A stretch of 32,000 bases of DNA from Thermococcus argininiproducens (GCF_023746595.1 NZ_CP080572.1:985890-1017889); one strand, 5' to 3'; positions 6,238-17,145 are shown, numbered from the stretch's first letter. A program made the numbers and translations. Notes: generated by a model not told the origin, from the letters alone.

Positions 6238-6267
6238 ATTTCTCACGTGAGGCTATTTTGGGCTTAT

Positions 6268-6283
6268 TATTTTTAAATTTATG
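6268..6283 (+). promoter_or_regulatory. Putative TATA region in the divergent arginase-like / hps-phi intergenic region
   Basis: TTATTATTTTTAAATTTA lies about 90 nt upstream of the hps-phi ATG. This is the AT-richest part of the 133-nt gap. Confidence 0.3.
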
Positions 6284-6370
6284 GGAGAGAGTGATTAATG
6301 GTGAAGGGGTTAAAGTTAAAAGTAACCCTCTTGATGTTAAGTTTGAGGATCATTGGGGAGGTACGTTAAG

Positions 6371-7591
6371 ATGATCTTACAAGTGGCACTTGACTTAACG
6401 GATATAGAACAAGCTATTTCTATAGCAGAAAAAGCAGCTCGTGGTGGGGCTCATTGGCTCGAGGTTGGAACACCACTCATAAAGAAGGAAGGCATGAGAG
6501 CAGTAGAACTCATGAAAAGAAGGTTCCCTGATAGAAAAATAGTAGCTGACCTGAAGACTATGGATACAGGGGCACTTGAAGTAGAAATGGCGGCTAGACA
6601 TGGGGCAGATGTCGTCTCGATACTTGGAGTTGCTGACAACAAAACCATAAAAGACGCAGTTACCGTAGGTAGAAAGTATGGAATAAAGGTAATGGTGGAC
6701 TTAATCGGAGTTAAGGACAAGGTAGAAAGGGCAAAAGAACTTGAAAAGATGGGAGTTCACTATATTCTTGTTCATACAGGAATAGATGAACAAGCTCAAG
6801 GAAAAGATCCACTTGAAGATCTAGAAAAAGTTGTAAAGGCAGTAAAAGTCCCGGTTGCTGTGGCCGGCGGGTTAAATTTAGAGACAATCCCTACGGTTAT
6901 AGAAGCCGGTGCTACCATTATCATAGTTGGAGGAGCAATAACAAAGACGAAAGATCCTGAAGGTATTACCAAGAAGATACTTGACCTCTTCTGGGGTGAA
7001 TACATGCAAACGATTAGAAAGGCGATTCACGATATCACAGACCATATCGACATGGTAGCTGATTCTTTAAAACTGGATCAAGTCAGGGGAATGGTAGATG
7101 CAATGATTGGGGCAAATAAAATATTTATTTATGGCGCTGGGAGAAGTGGTCTAGTAGGAAAAGCCTTTGCAATGAGGTTAATGCACCTTGACTTTGACGT
7201 TTATGTTGTAGGTGAAACAATAACTCCTGCGTTTGGTGAAGGAGATCTCCTTATAGCAATCAGTGGGAGTGGTGAAACCAGAACTATAGTAGATGCAGCA
7301 GAGATTGCTAAAAAACAAGGGGGAAAAGTTGTAGCAATAACATCATATAAGGATTCAACTCTTGGAAAGCTTTCTGATGTGGTTGTGGAAATACCAGGAA
7401 GGACAAAAGCAGATATCCCCACTGACTACATTGCTAGGCAAATGCTCACAGAGTATAAGTGGATAGCCCCAATGGGAACACTTTTTGAAGATTCAACAAT
7501 GCTGTTTTTAGATGGGATAATAGCCCTATTGATGGCCACTTTCCAAAAGACAGAAAAGGATATGAAGAGAAAACATGCTACATTAGAGTGA
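6371..7591 (+). CDS. hps-phi: Bifunctional 3-hexulose-6-phosphate synthase / 6-phospho-3-hexuloisomerase (Hps-Phi fusion, RuMP pathway)
   Basis: The N-terminal half is MILQVALDL...WLEVGTPLIKKEG...VADLKTMDTG...ILVHTGIDEQ (Hps/OMPDC-like barrel). The C-terminal half is IFIYGAGRSGLVGKAFAMRLMHL...LLIAISGSGET (SIS domain, Phi). This fusion is known in Thermococcales. ATG at 6371 follows GGGGAGGT. Confidence 0.92.
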   Translation: MILQVALDLTDIEQAISIAEKAARGGAHWLEVGTPLIKKEGMRAVELMKRRFPDRKIVADLKTMDTGALEVEMAARHGADVVSILGVADNKTIKDAVTVGRKYGIKVMVDLIGVKDKVERAKELEKMGVHYILVHTGIDEQAQGKDPLEDLEKVVKAVKVPVAVAGGLNLETIPTVIEAGATIIIVGGAITKTKDPEGITKKILDLFWGEYMQTIRKAIHDITDHIDMVADSLKLDQVRGMVDAMIGANKIFIYGAGRSGLVGKAFAMRLMHLDFDVYVVGETITPAFGEGDLLIAISGSGETRTIVDAAEIAKKQGGKVVAITSYKDSTLGKLSDVVVEIPGRTKADIPTDYIARQMLTEYKWIAPMGTLFEDSTMLFLDGIIALLMATFQKTEKDMKRKHATLE

Positions 7592-8352
7592 TTCGTATGC
7601 CTTCATTTCCTCATATTTTTATTGGGATCGGGAACAATGGTAATAGAGTTGTCCAAAATATTGGAATAGAAGAAGTTCTAAAGTTCTCCATAAACCCCTC
7701 TTATTATTTATTGGGGAAATCCTCATTCAAGAAGAAAATCAGGAAGACCTTCTGGGACATTCCAGATAATGCAGTTCTATGGATTGTGTTAGAAAATAAG
7801 CCAATAAATATTGAGATATTAGAGATTATTCTTGATTATCTGCCTAAAAATCCATTAAAACTTGCGTACATCTTGACCCCTCAAAAAGAGCTGGTACATG
7901 AAAAGAAACCGTGGTGGGCCCAGGAATTCGATACAGTATTCTATGATTCTCTATGGGAATTCTTACATGATTACACAGATGTTTCACTAGAAACGGCCTT
8001 TCAAATGGCAGCAAAAAATATTGGACTTATGTTCACTAGGCTTCATTACTATCTTGAAAACCAAATGTTAGTAAATGTTGATTATGCTGACTTCTTTAAC
8101 ATAGTTAGGGGCAATAATGTAGGGATCCTACGGTTGCTAACTAAAGTTAACTTTGAGTGGCATTGGGGAATCTGGGATAAAGGCTTGATAAACATTCTTG
8201 TAGGAGAAAATGTTCCCTTAAGCGATGCACATAAAATACTTTATAATTTTCAGAATTTCCTGAAAGAAAAAGACATAATCTGGGGAATAAAAATGGAAGA
8301 GGGCTTAAACAGCCGCGTTGAGATACTTTCTCTCTTAGTTAAGAGGTGGTAG
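7588..8352 (+). CDS. Degenerate FtsZ/tubulin-fold protein (T3/T4 glycine loops apparently absent, T7-like NVDYAD retained)
   Basis: Segments match FtsZ in order: IFIGIGNNGNRVV vs VVGxGGxGxN; SINPSYYLL vs AINTDAQQL; LVNVDYADFFNIV vs LINVDFADVKAVM; DIIWGIKMEEGLNSRVEILSLLV vs TIIWGATIDENL..VRVLLVITG. Start is either the GTG at 7588 (GTGA overlap with the hps-phi stop) or the ATG at 7597. Confidence 0.6.
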   Translation: MIRMPSFPHIFIGIGNNGNRVVQNIGIEEVLKFSINPSYYLLGKSSFKKKIRKTFWDIPDNAVLWIVLENKPINIEILEIILDYLPKNPLKLAYILTPQKELVHEKKPWWAQEFDTVFYDSLWEFLHDYTDVSLETAFQMAAKNIGLMFTRLHYYLENQMLVNVDYADFFNIVRGNNVGILRLLTKVNFEWHWGIWDKGLINILVGENVPLSDAHKILYNFQNFLKEKDIIWGIKMEEGLNSRVEILSLLVKRW

Positions 8353-8353
8353 C

Positions 8354-9001
8354 ATGAGAGCTATCTTTTTTGACATAGATGGAACTCTCTTAACAGAAAA
8401 ACCTCTCATTATGCTATTTCTTCCACAGGTATATGATACACTCTCAAAAAAACTTGGAATATCCAAAGGTGACGCTCGACTAAAATTTCTTAGAGAAATC
8501 GCAGAAAGAAAAAATACTTACGAATGGCATGATTGGAATTTTTTCTTTAAGAGCTTTGGACTTGAGTTTAGGTATGAAGAGTTGATAAAGAGTTATCCCC
8601 ACAAAATTCAGGTGTTTCCGGATGTAATCCCAACTTTGGAGTGGTTAAAAGAAGAGGGATATAAGTTAGGGGTAATAACTAGTGGTCCAGAGTATCAGAA
8701 ATTGAAACTCAGGATAACAAAACTTGACATGTACTTCGATGTTATTGTAACAAGAGAAGATGTAAAAACTGTGAAGCCTGATCCTAGAATATTTTTATAT
8801 GGGTGTGAGAAGTTGGGAATAGAACCGAGAGAAGCTGTAATGATAGGAGATGACTTAAATCAGGATGTATATGGCCCTAGAAATGTTGGTATGATGGCTA
8901 TCTGGATAAATCGTGAAGGCATAGAGGATTATAATTTTGCTACCATTGAAATTAGGAGCCTTCATCAGCTTAGAAGTATACTGGGGGGATTTAGAAAATG
9001 A
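8354..9001 (+). CDS. HAD-superfamily hydrolase, subfamily IA
   Basis: HAD motifs I to IV are present: FFDIDGTL, VITSG, K(P)D and MIGDDLNQDV. The ATG comes 1 nt after the preceding stop, and GAGGTGG lies upstream. Confidence 0.85.
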   Translation: MRAIFFDIDGTLLTEKPLIMLFLPQVYDTLSKKLGISKGDARLKFLREIAERKNTYEWHDWNFFFKSFGLEFRYEELIKSYPHKIQVFPDVIPTLEWLKEEGYKLGVITSGPEYQKLKLRITKLDMYFDVIVTREDVKTVKPDPRIFLYGCEKLGIEPREAVMIGDDLNQDVYGPRNVGMMAIWINREGIEDYNFATIEIRSLHQLRSILGGFRK

Positions 9002-9177
9002 GGGAGATATTCAATAAGGAAGGGATTTTCATAAAATTTGAAGAAAAGCTAGTGAAACTGGAGAATGGGGATGAGTTGGTGCATAGGCAAGAACGTCCTA
9101 CTAATCTATGGTGGGAACTTAAAGAGGTCATAAAGGGAAAAAAGGTCAAAATAATTGTATATGAGCTTGGGGAATGA
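8998..9177 (+). CDS. Small 59-aa protein, not in the supplied ORF track (below its length cut-off)
   Basis: My own translation is MREIFNKEGIFIKFEEKLVKLENGDELVHRQERPTNLWWELKEVIKGKKVKIIVYELGE. The ATG (8998) overlaps the HAD stop as ATGA. Its TGA (9175-9177) lies 3 nt before the next ATG. A G-run at 8983-8988 could serve as the RBS, and the composition resembles the neighbouring genes. Confidence 0.6.
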   Translation: MREIFNKEGIFIKFEEKLVKLENGDELVHRQERPTNLWWELKEVIKGKKVKIIVYELGE

Positions 9178-9180
9178 AAG

Positions 9181-9990
9181 ATGATTGCACATCTAATCAA
9201 CACTGATATCTATGGAAGGGACATTTTGGAAGTTTATTTGGAATATCGAAAGCAAAACTTCAATTTTTTAGAGGATGCTAAAGATCTCTTTTTAAAAAAC
9301 CTAGATAATGTTCTCATTGTGACATGTTTTCCAATACCTCCAATGCAAATAGTAGAAACTGACGGTCCACCTGGTGCTTTGGCCCTATATAAGGCAATTG
9401 AAAAACTTGGAGGGAAGGCGGAGATATTAACGTGTGAAAAAATAAGAAGAGCCCTCAACGAGTTTAAAGTTAATTTTGCAGAGAATCCTTCAGTTGAAGA
9501 GTACTCTCTTTTGATAAGTGTTGAAACCCCTGGACGGGCAAAGGATGGAAGATATTATTCGATGAGTGCATTAGAAATTAAAATGCCGCCTTTTGATGAA
9601 TTATTTTTGAAAGCGAGAGAGCTTGGGATACCTACCATTGGAATTGGGGACGGAGGAAATGAGATAGGAATGGGAAATATTGCCGAACTCATTAAGAAGT
9701 ACATCAGGTTTGGAGAGAAAATAACTAGTATTATAGAAGTTGATGAATTAATACTTGCTGCAGTTTCCAATTGGGGTGCGTATGGGTTAATTGCTCAAGT
9801 TTCTCTTGAAGTTAAGGAGAATCTCTTGAAAAATTGGGATGAAAGAAGAGTTCTGGAGGCTCTAATTTCTGCAGGGGTTATAGATGGGGTTGTTAAAAAA
9901 CCTCAGCTTAGCGTTGATGGAATTCCACTTGAACTTCATAAGAATCTCATAACCTTGCTTAATTCGATAATAGAAAGTAGAATTGGGTGA
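9181..9990 (+). CDS. DUF4392 / D-glutamate-cyclase-like family protein (function unknown in archaea)
   Basis: VETDGPPGALAL and GIGDGGNEIGMGN match the motifs I associate with DUF4392. The gene itself is a clear 269-aa ORF in operon context. The family call is from memory only. Confidence 0.55.
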   Translation: MIAHLINTDIYGRDILEVYLEYRKQNFNFLEDAKDLFLKNLDNVLIVTCFPIPPMQIVETDGPPGALALYKAIEKLGGKAEILTCEKIRRALNEFKVNFAENPSVEEYSLLISVETPGRAKDGRYYSMSALEIKMPPFDELFLKARELGIPTIGIGDGGNEIGMGNIAELIKKYIRFGEKITSIIEVDELILAAVSNWGAYGLIAQVSLEVKENLLKNWDERRVLEALISAGVIDGVVKKPQLSVDGIPLELHKNLITLLNSIIESRIG

Positions 9991-9995
9991 GTACG

Positions 9996-10610
9996 ATGAA
10001 AATCGAGGAGTATATTCATAATAATGCTAGTTTGGAGCTTATACGAAAAGCAGAGCAATTTGCTAAAAATTTCTTTGAAAGAGAGGGGACTCATGGATTT
10101 TCTCATATTAAACGAGTTTTTAATCTTTGTTTACATTTAGGAAAGGATGAAGGGGCTGATCTTGAAGTTCTAGCTTTAGCAGCATTGCTTCATGATATTG
10201 CACGGCCTTTGGAAGACAAGGGAATTGTGGATGATCATGCAAAAGAAAGTGCAAAAATTGCCCGTCGCTTTTTGGGTTCTCTTGGATATCCCAAGATAGA
10301 GGAAGTAGTTCATGCAATCGAAGCTCACCGGTTCTCAAAACCTCCGGAACCAAAAACCATTGAGGCAAAAATACTAAGCGATGCGGATAAACTTGATGCC
10401 ATAGGTGCAATCGGAGTTGCAAGAGTATTCATGTATTCGGGAGAGCATGGGAGAGATATAGAATTCTCATTAAAGCACTTTGAAGAGAAAATATTGAAAC
10501 TTAAAGATTTGATGTATACCAAAAGTGCAAAGAAGCTTGCTAACGAAAGACATAAGTTCGTGGAGGAATTTATTAAAAGAATACAGAAGGAAATTGAAGG
10601 AGAGCTTTAG
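9996..10610 (+). CDS. HD-domain metal-dependent phosphohydrolase
   Basis: The HD motif is present: H..H (FSHIKRV), LLHDIARP, HAIEAH and SDADKLDAIG. Start is the ATG at 9996 or the GTG at 9987, which overlaps the upstream stop as GTGA. Confidence 0.85.
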   Translation: MKIEEYIHNNASLELIRKAEQFAKNFFEREGTHGFSHIKRVFNLCLHLGKDEGADLEVLALAALLHDIARPLEDKGIVDDHAKESAKIARRFLGSLGYPKIEEVVHAIEAHRFSKPPEPKTIEAKILSDADKLDAIGAIGVARVFMYSGEHGRDIEFSLKHFEEKILKLKDLMYTKSAKKLANERHKFVEEFIKRIQKEIEGEL

Positions 10611-10612
10611 GG

Positions 10613-10636
10613 TTTTTTGTGAGATACATCTTTTTT
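10613..10636 (+). terminator. Oligo-T terminator tracts after the hps-phi...HD operon
   Basis: TTTTTT occurs at 10613-10618 and again at 10631-10636, immediately after the HD gene stop. Confidence 0.45.
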
Positions 10637-10765
10637 GAGGTCTTGATTTTAGAGTGAACAGCTCACTTTTCAGTTCTTTTTGCGAGGGGATAAGGTTTTT
10701 AAATAACATCTACAAAAGAGTGTTAGCTTATGTTCATTTTTTGCAAATAACTGGGAGGTGAGCTA

Positions 10766-16428: not shown

Positions 16429-17145
16429 ATGGTTAAGGCAATCTCGGTAGATATAGACGGAACGATAACGTACCCAGATAGGAGATTACATGAAAAAGCT
16501 GTTGAAGCCATAAGACTAGCAGAGACTCTTGGGGTACCTGTTATGCTCGTCACTGGGAATAGTGCATGTTTTGCTTATGCTACAAGCATTTTAATTGGCA
16601 CGACTGGCCCATTTATTGCTGAAGATGGGGGAGTGATAGGGGACAGGAAAAATAATCGTATTTTTCTTGGGGACATGGGTGATTCGATGATTTTGTGGAG
16701 TGAACTGAAAAAACGTTATCCTAATGCTGAAATGAGTGATACGATGAAATATGGAGAAAGACGGGCAGGTCTTGTAATAAAGAGAACGGTACCTGTAGAA
16801 GTCGTTAGGGCCATTATAGGGGACTTGAATTTAGATCTCATAGCTGTGGACAGTGGATATGCTATTCATGTAAAACAGCCCCATGTAAATAAAGGAGAGG
16901 GAATAAAGAAAGCATGTCAAAGTTTGGGCATAACTCCAAAAGAAGTCGCACATATTGGTGATGGAGAAAATGATCTTGATGCTTTCAGGGTTGTAGGGTA
17001 TAAAGTTGCAGTGGCCCAGGCTCCAGAGAGTCTTAAAAAGAAAGCAGATTATGTCACAAATAAATCTTATGGGGAAGGAGGAGCAGAAGGTATTTTGCAT
17101 ATTTTGAAAAAGTTTGGATATTTGGAGGACTATTACCCTAAGTAG
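16429..17145 (+). CDS. Phosphoglycolate phosphatase-type HAD hydrolase (subfamily IIB, archaeal)
   Basis: [16 protein letters not shown] and [11 protein letters not shown] form the HAD IIB (Cof-like) pattern typical of archaeal PGPase. Confidence 0.8.

What the first reader, a model, noticed from the sequence alone, without database searches (positions are those of the whole stretch)
6371..10610. Six genes fused by stop/start coupling: hps-phi, FtsZ-like, HAD, 59-aa ORF, DUF4392-like, HD hydrolase
Every junction in this block is overlapping or nearly so.
- hps-phi TGA 7589-7591 against GTG 7588 (GTGA overlap).
- TAG 8350-8352 against ATG 8354 (1-nt gap).
- TGA 8999-9001 against ATG 8998 (ATGA overlap).
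- TGA 9175-9177 against ATG 9181 (3-nt gap).
- TGA 9988-9990 against GTG 9987 (GTGA overlap), or ATG 9996.

The only TATA-like region lies upstream of hps-phi, and oligo-T tracts appear only after 10610. This architecture implies one transcript with stoichiometric co-expression.

Only the first gene has a known role. In archaea Hps-Phi runs in reverse, producing Ru5P and formaldehyde from F6P. The other five comprise two phosphohydrolase superfamilies, a cyclase-like DUF, a cytoskeletal-fold protein and a micro-protein. They form no pathway I recognise. They could be an uncharacterised sugar-phosphate or formaldehyde-handling or salvage module attached to the RuMP shunt.
Basis: partly seen in the sequence, partly recalled or inferred. 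Interest (0 to 1): 0.62.

Follow-up and report, generated by a model that had tools for sequence, protein, structure and literature searches.

The report
Conserved six-gene hps-phi operon, Thermococcaceae
Six tightly packed genes led by the pentose-making enzyme Hps-Phi form an operon-like cluster found throughout Thermococcaceae and already listed as one transcription unit in a relative, but it was assembled from two older gene groups and nothing yet shows that the six genes form one pathway.

Summary
The five tight junctions are real. The conserved start codons are probably ATG 7597 and ATG 9996, which gives gaps of 5, 1, -4, 3 and 5 nt.

The same gene order occurs in every Thermococcus-type locus examined. 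It breaks between the 59-aa gene and DUF4392 in two genera, and the HD gene is inverted in Pyrococcus. The block is therefore composite: hps-phi, FtsZ-like, HAD and orf59, plus DUF4392 and HD.

Published maps list the orthologues TON_0336-0341 as one transcription unit. They also record internal start sites in T. onnurineus and T. kodakarensis, so equal expression of all six genes is not supported.

Two of the "unknown" genes already have crystal structures. DUF4392 is the orthologue of TON_0340, a weak Mn-dependent phosphatase. HAD is the orthologue of TON_0338. The HD protein is YpgQ-like.

The FtsZ-like protein is FtsZ-derived. It has lost GTP-binding loops T2-T5 but keeps the T7 loop. It occurs only in Thermococcales and also follows hps in a sister family.

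No pathway link to the RuMP shunt was demonstrated. Overall this is an orthologue of a catalogued transcription unit, with one unusual component.

The parts
6314..6325 (+). Probable BRE/TATA element of the hps-phi promoter (AAAGTTAAAAGT). The predicted transcription start is near 6348.
   Evidence: Inferred by placing the window at the same 23-nt 5'-UTR as the mapped start sites of TK0475 and TON_0336. Both relatives have CTTTAAAAA at -32 to -22. Not measured in this genome.
6371..7591 (+). [quoted passage not shown]
   Evidence: NCBIfam NF041755 scores 543 bits against a cut-off of 500. TIGR03128 and TIGR03127 are both above their cut-offs. Pfam OMPdecase plus SIS. Identity to relatives is 87-99%.
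7597..8352 (+). Degenerate FtsZ paralogue, 251 aa (alternative start GTG 7588). The nucleotide-binding loops T2-T5 are deleted and the T7 NxDxxD loop is kept.
   Evidence: Profile against PDB: M. jannaschii FtsZ, E 9e-9. AlphaFold2 pLDDT 85.6, pTM 0.86. Foldseek matches to FtsZ, E 5e-12, TM 0.67-0.75. Alignment with the genome's own three FtsZ/CetZ proteins. No Pfam family; TIGR00065 only 15 bits.
8354..9001 (+). HAD-IA phosphatase, 215 aa, orthologue of TON_0338.
   Evidence: PDB 4YGQ, E 3.7e-100. Pfam HAD_2, 103 bits. TIGR02253 scores 166.4 bits against a cut-off of 169.75. DxDGT motif FFDIDGTL.
8998..9177 (+). Conserved 59-aa protein of unknown fold family.
   Evidence: Single copy in 82 of 84 Thermococcaceae genomes and in 0 of 36 genomes of other families of the class. 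Always follows the HAD gene in the loci examined. The alignment shows a fixed length and conservative substitutions. AlphaFold2 pLDDT 82.7, hairpin plus helix; no Foldseek, Pfam or PDB match.
9181..9990 (+). DUF4392 / GLUCM-like_C protein, 269 aa, orthologue of TON_0340 (a Mn-dependent weak phosphatase).
   Evidence: PF14336, 228 bits. PDB 4FC5/5GL4, E 1.7e-113. All six metal ligands (E59, D61, E115, D157, E161, D246) are invariant. Biochemistry from PMC5132392.
9996..10610 (+). HD-domain phosphohydrolase of the YpgQ/YedJ group, 204 aa (alternative start GTG 9987).
   Evidence: PF01966, 79 bits. PRK10119 scores 114 bits against a cut-off of 286. PDB 2PQ7, 3B57, 5DQV (YpgQ) and 3GW7 (YedJ), E 1e-25 to 1e-31. 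The H..H, HD and D metal ligands align with YpgQ.
10613..10742 (+). Cluster of five T5-T6 runs after the last stop codon; likely the main terminator region.
   Evidence: In T. onnurineus the transcription unit ends after the HD gene, and the next unit starts at the NusA-like gene. Not measured in this genome.

Best explanation
**What it is.** This is the local copy of a composite operon found throughout Thermococcaceae.

**Transcription.** A promoter about 50 nt upstream of hps-phi drives a polycistronic RNA that can run through all six genes to a T-rich terminator after 10610. Each downstream gene has its own Shine-Dalgarno-like motif inside the end of the preceding gene, so ribosomes can re-initiate within a few nucleotides. 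Expression is not equal across the genes. Relatives show weaker internal start sites and a 5'-to-3' decline in signal, and isolated T5-T6 tracts lie inside the block.

**History.** The block combines two units, whichever arrangement came first:
- Unit A is hps-phi, a GTP-pocket-less FtsZ paralogue, a HAD phosphatase and a 59-aa protein.
- Unit B is a DUF4392 Mn-phosphatase-like enzyme and a YpgQ-like HD hydrolase.

**Function (inferred).** The three hydrolases are low-efficiency, broad-range phosphohydrolases acting on nucleotides or flavin nucleotides. The most likely reading is that they form a nucleotide and phosphometabolite housekeeping set co-expressed with the enzyme that supplies pentose phosphate for nucleotide synthesis. 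They are unlikely to be steps of a linear pathway with Hps-Phi.

**Confidence by part.** Architecture, orthology and composite origin: about 0.85. The housekeeping function: about 0.35.
For: **Architecture**
- Junctions and Shine-Dalgarno-like motifs.
- Gene order is identical in 9 of 9 loci from the window's own genus, in the g3 and g6 loci, in 30 further loci and in three metagenome bins.
- In Pyrococcus both flanks differ but the five-gene core is kept.
- Unit A and unit B lie at separate places in G016, G017 and G021.

**Transcription in relatives**
- TU0180 covers TON_0336-0341, and TU0181 starts 11 nt before TON_0337.
- T. kodakarensis start sites and per-gene counts.
- Promoter alignment.
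- T-tract distribution.

**Enzymology**
- TON_0340 is a Mn-dependent phosphatase that works best on AMP, with kcat/KM 1.9e2 per M per s.
- TON_0338 is a HAD phosphatase reported to recognise FMN. This rests on the titles of Ngo 2015 and Niu 2016 only.
- YpgQ hydrolyses (d)NTPs, with kcat/KM of about 90-280 per M per s.
- Catalytic residues are conserved here.

**Co-regulation hints**
- TON_0336 is reported as up-regulated on formate.
Against:
- The transcription units in relatives were partly inferred from read continuity. The T. kodakarensis counts are dRNA-seq counts, which are biased towards 5' ends.
- No physiological substrate is known for any of the three hydrolases.
- Outside Thermococcaceae, DUF4392 sits beside PxpABC 5-oxoprolinase or D-glutamate cyclase genes, not beside nucleotide enzymes. 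Its true role may therefore lie in 5-oxoproline or D-glutamate chemistry.
- The order of events between units A and B is unresolved.
- The housekeeping reading gives no role to the FtsZ-like protein or to the 59-aa protein.
Confidence: 0.6

Rival explanations
1. All six genes are made from a single transcript in fixed proportions, and they form a dedicated sugar-phosphate or formaldehyde-handling or salvage pathway attached to the reverse RuMP shunt.
For: - Tight junctions.
- A six-gene transcription unit in T. onnurineus.
- Broad conservation of the order.
- Three phosphohydrolases could in principle act on phosphosugars.
Against: - Internal start sites and unequal RNA signal in two relatives.
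- The block is split in two genera, and HD is inverted in Pyrococcus.
- The sister family keeps only Hps plus the FtsZ-like gene. There, DUF4392 and HD lie on other contigs and no close HAD or orf59 was found.
- In the TON_0340 assay the best substrate was AMP. Sugar phosphates were among the 20 compounds tested.
- No glycolytic TGM regulator motif lies at the promoter.
Confidence: 0.12
2. Hitch-hiking without shared function. Unrelated housekeeping genes ended up behind a strong, constitutively needed promoter. They stay together because of genome compaction and operon inertia, and the overlaps simply reflect deletion bias.
For: - 40-45% of same-strand neighbours in this genome are 10 nt or less apart.
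- Units A and B exist apart in some genera, and HD can flip without being lost.
- DUF4392 has quite different neighbours in bacteria.
- The HAD gene is kept in genomes where DHBP synthase, a riboflavin-pathway enzyme, was not found.
Against: - The five-gene core survives in Pyrococcus although both flanks have changed.
- The Hps/FtsZ-like adjacency recurs in a sister family with different flanks.
- orf59 always follows the HAD gene in the roughly 50 loci examined and is present in 82 of 84 Thermococcaceae genomes.
Confidence: 0.25

Closest known systems
T. onnurineus NA1 transcription unit TU0180 (TON_0336-TON_0341) and T. kodakarensis TK0475-TK0480
   Same: The same six genes in the same order, with 51-99% protein identity. 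The start site lies 23 nt upstream of hps-phi, and the next transcription unit starts at the NusA-like gene.
   Different: The exact junction lengths differ: hps-phi to the FtsZ-like gene is 8-9 nt in those species and 5 nt here. Internal start sites have been mapped there but not in this genome. Neither paper discusses the cluster as a functional unit.
Bacterial hxlAB / RuMP operons
   Same: They encode Hps and Phi activities. Here the two are fused into one protein, which matches NF041755 above its cut-off.
   Different: From general knowledge, bacterial hxlAB operons serve formaldehyde fixation or detoxification and carry no FtsZ-like, HAD, DUF4392 or HD genes. In Thermococcales the enzyme is thought to run in reverse to make Ru5P (Orita 2006, recalled, not read here).
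FtsZ / CetZ tubulin-superfamily proteins
   Same: The FtsZ-like protein shares the full two-domain fold, helix H7, the T7 NxDxxD loop and the C-terminal subdomain.
   Different: Loops T2/T3, the T4 signature GGGTG[ST]G and T5 are deleted. TIGR00065 scores 15 bits against a cut-off of 295. The protein is restricted to Thermococcales. A 2023 CetZ survey mentions an extra 'highly divergent' tubulin-superfamily protein only in T. gammatolerans and Thermococcus AM4 and calls it strain-specific (PMC9856176). If that is this family, which is my inference, it is in fact present in 82 of 84 Thermococcaceae genomes.
D-glutamate cyclase (DGLUCY) and bacterial DUF4392 genes next to PxpABC 5-oxoprolinase
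   Same: The same PF14336 domain with the same six acidic metal ligands.
   Different: In this genome there is no adjacent D-Glu_cyclase (PF07286) or PxpABC gene. PxpA lies about 280 kb away, at 1,275 kb in the genome. In 77 loci outside Thermococcaceae, 21 have PxpC and 16 have PF07286 among the nearest genes, mostly immediately upstream. None has HD, HAD or Hps nearby.
B. subtilis YpgQ / E. coli YedJ HD hydrolases
   Same: The same subfamily by sequence, with the metal ligands aligned. YpgQ is a Mn-dependent (d)NTP pyrophosphohydrolase.
   Different: Identity is only about 30%, and the PRK10119 equivalog cut-off is not reached. Activity is untested.

Membership tests
Bifunctional Hps-Phi (NCBIfam NF041755 RuMP_HxlAB) | Whole-protein score above the curated cut-off, with both the HxlA and HxlB domains present | tested here: met
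   543.4 bits against 500. TIGR03128 scores 242.6 against 200, and TIGR03127 scores 215 against 160.
FtsZ/tubulin superfamily | Two-domain FtsZ fold and detectable sequence homology | tested here: met
   Foldseek E 5e-12, TM 0.67-0.75 over the full length. Profile against M. jannaschii FtsZ, E 9e-9.
FtsZ/tubulin superfamily | GTP-binding signature GGGTG[ST]G (T4) and the T2/T3/T5 loops | tested here: not met
   These segments are deleted in the alignment with the genome's own FtsZ1, FtsZ2 and CetZ-like proteins. TIGR00065 scores 15.4 bits against 295.2, and there is no Pfam Tubulin or FtsZ_C hit.
FtsZ/tubulin superfamily | T7 synergy loop NxDxxD | tested here: met
   N160, D162 and D165 are invariant in 28 family members, including the short sister-family form. 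They align to FtsZ NLDFAD.
HAD-IA phosphatase, TIGR02253 (CTE7) subfamily / TON_0338 orthologue | Pfam HAD domain, catalytic DxDGT motif and close identity to the crystallised TON_0338 | tested here: met
   HAD_2, 103.5 bits. FFDIDGTL motif. PDB 4YGQ, E 3.7e-100.
HAD-IA phosphatase, TIGR02253 (CTE7) subfamily / TON_0338 orthologue | Score above the TIGR02253 curated cut-off | tested here: not met
   166.4 bits against 169.75, a narrow miss.
DUF4392 / GLUCM-like_C (PF14336), TON_0340-type Mn phosphatase | Pfam score above the gathering threshold, and six invariant acidic metal ligands | tested here: met
   227.7 bits against 27.9. E59, D61, E115, D157, E161 and D246 are conserved. PDB 4FC5, E 1.7e-113.
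D-glutamate cyclase system (PF07286 + PF14336) | Fusion to, or adjacency with, the D-Glu_cyclase domain PF07286 | tested here: not met
   No such neighbour in the window. The adjacency is seen only in bacterial loci.
YpgQ/YedJ-type HD phosphohydrolase | HD domain with the H..H, HD and D metal ligands | tested here: met
   PF01966, 79 bits. The ligands align with YpgQ, PDB 5DQV.
YpgQ/YedJ-type HD phosphohydrolase | Equivalog-level score for PRK10119 (YedJ) | tested here: not met
   113.9 bits against 286.
Single-promoter operon | Same strand, short or overlapping junctions, terminator only at the end | tested here: inconclusive
   The junctions meet this criterion. A T-tract cluster lies after 10610, but 11 isolated T5-T6 runs lie inside the block.
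Single-promoter operon | One transcription start, no internal promoters | not testable with these tools
In relatives, internal start sites are reported, so the criterion is not met there.
Single-promoter operon | Gene order conserved in related genomes | tested here: met
   Conserved in genera g1, g3 and g6, and as a five-gene core in g2. Split in g4 and g5.

The most novel reading that the evidence does not exclude
The GTP-pocket-less FtsZ paralogue keeps the T7 catalytic loop and the lower polymer interface but has lost its own nucleotide site. It may work with Hps in one of two ways. It could cap or modulate FtsZ filaments and so couple cell division to pentose-phosphate and nucleotide supply. 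Or it could use the remnant Rossmann-like domain, which keeps the GxGxxG motif, to bind a phosphosugar and scaffold Hps-Phi. The hps/FtsZ-like adjacency has been kept in two families of Thermococcales despite different flanking genes and despite Hps not being fused to Phi in one of them. The 59-aa protein and the hydrolases would then be accessory.
Probability: 0.12. Interest if true: 0.75.

Novelty: new member of a known kind. Interest (0 to 1): 0.4.

Why it matters
Hps-Phi is thought to be the sole route to pentose phosphates in Thermococcales. Its operon partners are present in nearly every member of the family, yet none has a known physiological role. Two of them have been crystallised as orphan enzymes, apparently without reference to their genomic context.

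Seeing the cluster as 4 + 2 genes gives concrete, cheap experiments in T. kodakarensis, where genetic tools exist. The cluster contains:
- three weak phosphohydrolases
- an FtsZ paralogue without a GTP pocket
- a microprotein confined to this family

This analysis also suggests a correction. An 'extra divergent tubulin-like protein' reported for two Thermococcus strains was taken to be strain-specific. If it is this family, which I infer but did not confirm, it is in fact almost universal in Thermococcaceae.

If the FtsZ-like protein really links division to pentose supply, that would be a new kind of metabolic control of the archaeal division ring.

Tried and rejected
1. **HAD as the missing riboflavin-pathway (ARPP/FMN) phosphatase fed by Ru5P.** Rejected as its conserved role. 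DHBP synthase (PF00926) was not found in this 98.6%-complete genome or in G019, yet the HAD gene is retained in both.
2. **Control of the promoter by the Thermococcales glycolytic motif TATCAC-N5-GTGATA.** No match with 3 or fewer mismatches lies near 6250-6370, and the window total is at chance level.
3. **A DUF4392/HD pair conserved beyond Thermococcaceae.** None of 77 bacterial and archaeal DUF4392 loci has HD, HAD, orf59, an FtsZ-like gene or Hps within 6 kb. In the sister family, HD lies on a different contig.
4. **Fold assignment for the 59-aa protein.** No Pfam, NCBIfam, PDB-sequence or Foldseek match; the best Foldseek E-value is 1.1.
5. **RNA families inside the block.** None found.
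6. **Bacterial sigma-70 promoter and hairpin-terminator scan.** Counts are at shuffle level and the models do not apply to archaea.
7. **Order of the A/B merger from a rooted tree of concatenated unit-A proteins.** The outgroup branch is very long and the rooting (Pyrococcus basal) conflicts with the accepted taxonomy. Left unresolved.
9. **Locus-tag searches (TK0475/0476, PF0220/0221, PH1937/1938).** No papers in the searchable library.

Full report
**Observation**

Two start codons are probably different. Database orthologues of the second protein are 251 aa and begin MPSF, which corresponds to ATG 7597. HD orthologues align from residue 4, which corresponds to ATG 9996. The junctions are then +5, +1, -4, +3 and +5 nt.

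Each start is preceded by a GGTG-type purine-rich motif lying inside the previous gene.

In a crude longest-ORF gene set of this genome, which is 90% coding, 40-45% of same-strand neighbours are 10 nt or less apart. Only about 10 of 1338 runs reach six genes. Tight spacing is the local norm, but six in a row is uncommon.

Two side claims fail. Eleven T5-T6 runs lie inside the block, although five cluster at 10613-10742 just after the last stop. A/T-rich octamers also occur internally.

**Gene identities**

- **Gene 1** is a bifunctional Hps-Phi, above the NCBIfam equivalog cut-off.
- **Gene 2** has no Pfam family. A profile of 28 homologues finds M. jannaschii FtsZ at E 9e-9. An AlphaFold2 model (pLDDT 85.6, pTM 0.86) matches FtsZ structures over its full length (Foldseek E 5e-12, TM 0.67-0.75).
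  - I aligned it with the genome's own FtsZ1, FtsZ2 and CetZ-like proteins. The T2/T3 region, the T4 signature GGGTGTG and the T5 region are deleted.
  - Part of T1 (GxGxxG), helix H7, the T7 loop NxDxxD (invariant N160, D162, D165) and the C-terminal subdomain remain.
- **Gene 3** is a HAD-IA phosphatase, the orthologue of TON_0338 (PDB 4YGQ, E 4e-100). References to Ngo 2015 and Niu 2016 ('recognition of FMN') are cited by title only.
- **Gene 4** is a 59-aa protein with no detectable family or fold match.
- **Gene 5** is the orthologue of TON_0340 (PDB 4FC5/5GL4, E 2e-113).
  - That protein is a homodimer with a di-Mn site formed by six acidic residues.
  - It has weak phosphatase activity, best on AMP, with kcat/KM 1.9e2 per M per s (PMC5132392).
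  - All six ligands are conserved here.
- **Gene 6** is an HD hydrolase of the YpgQ/YedJ group, with the metal ligands aligned. YpgQ is a Mn-dependent (d)NTP pyrophosphohydrolase of low catalytic efficiency (PMC8177086).

**Conservation of the order**

tblastn on 14-kb loci shows all six genes in the same order in the window's genus (9 of 9 loci) and in genera g3 and g6. Thirty further loci all read arginase-like, hps-phi, FtsZ-like, HAD, orf59, DUF4392.

Hps-phi, FtsZ-like, HAD and orf59 are at one locus. DUF4392 and HD are at another, next to CYTH and archaemetzincin genes.

In an uncultured sister family of the same order (G025, G026):
- A stand-alone Hps is followed 14 nt later by a 178-aa short form of the FtsZ-like protein, with different flanking genes.
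- DUF4392 and an HD orthologue lie on other contigs.
- No close HAD orthologue and no orf59 were found.

Distribution of the two unusual genes:
- The FtsZ-like family gives strong matches in 82 of 84 Thermococcaceae genomes and the short form in 2 of 2 sister-family genomes. Elsewhere in the class, only true FtsZ proteins match.
- An exhaustive HMM search of 1.8 billion representative proteins finds nothing else closer than FtsZ.
- orf59 is single-copy in 82 of 84 Thermococcaceae genomes and was found in 0 of 36 other genomes of the class.

The block is therefore composite: unit A (four genes) plus unit B (two genes). Only the Hps/FtsZ-like link extends beyond the family. A rooted tree of unit-A proteins could not resolve whether the joined or the split arrangement is ancestral.

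**DUF4392 elsewhere**

I examined 77 DUF4392 loci from bacteria and other archaea. None has HD, HAD, orf59, an FtsZ-like gene or Hps within 6 kb. I clustered the three nearest ORFs on each side and found:
- a PxpC-like protein (CT_A_B) in 21 loci, immediately upstream in 19 of them
- PxpB (CT_C_D) and PxpA (LamB_YcsF) in 18 loci each, mostly two and three genes upstream
- D-Glu_cyclase (PF07286) in 16 loci, immediately upstream in 12
- a class IV aminotransferase downstream in 12 loci

The broadly conserved context of this domain is 5-oxoproline and D-glutamate metabolism. PxpA is present in this genome but lies about 280 kb away.

**Transcription**

In T. onnurineus, Supplementary Table 2 of PMC5316973 lists two transcription units:
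- TU0180, with its start at 311590, 23 nt before TON_0336, covering TON_0336-0341
- TU0181, with its start at 312832, 11 nt before TON_0337, covering TON_0337-0341

In T. kodakarensis, PMC4247193 lists:
- a primary start site 23 nt before TK0475
- an internal start site within TK0476
- start sites 16 nt before TK0477 and 10 nt before TK0480
- normalised dRNA-seq counts that fall from TK0475 and TK0476 (hundreds to thousands) to TK0478 (about 8) and TK0479 (about 31), with some recovery at TK0480. These counts are biased towards 5' ends.

I lined up the window at the same 5'-UTR lengths as the mapped start sites. This places the likely hps-phi TATA at AAAGTTAAAAGT, about 6314-6325. It also shows that the sequence under the T. 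onnurineus internal promoter (AAAAGGATATGAAGA) is present at the corresponding position in the window, although that sequence is also constrained as coding sequence.

Co-transcription of the six genes is thus documented in a close relative. Exclusive single-promoter, stoichiometric expression is not.

**Function**

- *Shown.* Orthology to two crystallised weak phosphatases and membership of the YpgQ-type HD group. The FtsZ derivation, with loss of the nucleotide-binding loops.
- *Inferred.* The three hydrolases form a nucleotide and phosphometabolite housekeeping set co-expressed with the pentose-phosphate supplier. My confidence in this part is about 0.35.
- *Hints of co-regulation.* TON_0336 is reported as up-regulated on formate. 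[quoted passage not shown]
- *Rejected.* A riboflavin-pathway role for the HAD gene, because DHBP synthase was not found in this genome or in G019. Regulation through the glycolytic TGM motif.
- *Not excluded.* A specific partnership between Hps and the FtsZ-like protein.

**Literature on the FtsZ-like protein**

A 2023 CetZ survey notes an extra 'highly divergent' tubulin-superfamily protein only in T. gammatolerans and Thermococcus AM4 and treats it as strain-specific (PMC9856176). NCBI labels the T. gammatolerans and P. abyssi members of the present family 'FtsZ/tubulin family protein'. I infer, but did not confirm, that these are the same proteins. The family is in fact near-universal in Thermococcaceae.

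**Verdict**

The junction observation is correct. The cluster is the orthologue of a transcription unit already catalogued in T. onnurineus. It is best described as a composite, leaky operon, not a fused single-pathway module.

Its most unusual parts are the GTP-pocket-less FtsZ paralogue linked to hps and the family-specific 59-aa protein.

Noticed in passing
L033:5489-7456 (G017), L031:7022-9077 (G016), L039:5518-7321 (G026): Where DUF4392 (with or without HD) is not joined to the hps-phi unit, it lies next to a CYTH-domain (triphosphate tunnel) gene. This holds in two Thermococcaceae genera and in the sister family. In this genome the CYTH and archaemetzincin genes are far away, at about 84 kb. 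It may be ancestral synteny or a functional link between phosphohydrolases.
   Followed up: partly
L062-L138 (bacterial and archaeal DUF4392 loci): Among 77 DUF4392 loci outside Thermococcaceae, 21 have PxpC among the three nearest genes (immediately upstream in 19), usually with PxpB and PxpA further upstream, and 16 have the D-glutamate cyclase domain (immediately upstream in 12). A class IV aminotransferase lies downstream in 12. This points to 5-oxoproline or D-glutamate chemistry, not the generic phosphatase role suggested by the crystal-structure paper.
   Followed up: partly
window 6264-6328: The A/T stretch at 6264-6283 probably serves the divergent arginase-fold gene, which starts at 6246 on the minus strand.
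   Followed up: partly
G104:C2:360118-361698: One Thermococcus-type genome carries a second copy of the FtsZ-like gene plus orf59. In that copy the FtsZ-like match is split into two overlapping pieces, one with an internal TGA. This could be a decaying duplicate or contamination (2% by the quality figure).
   Followed up: no
window 16429-17124: A HAD-IIB phosphoglycolate-phosphatase-like gene lies about 6 kb downstream of the block. Its orthologue sits beside the DUF4392/HD pair in Palaeococcus-type genomes.
   Followed up: no
G000:C1:610326-611291, 942484-943458, 1805062-1806063: The genome encodes three further tubulin-superfamily proteins: two canonical FtsZ proteins above the TIGR00065 cut-off, and one divergent CetZ-like protein at 134 bits. 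The FtsZ-like gene in the block is therefore a fourth paralogue.
   Followed up: partly
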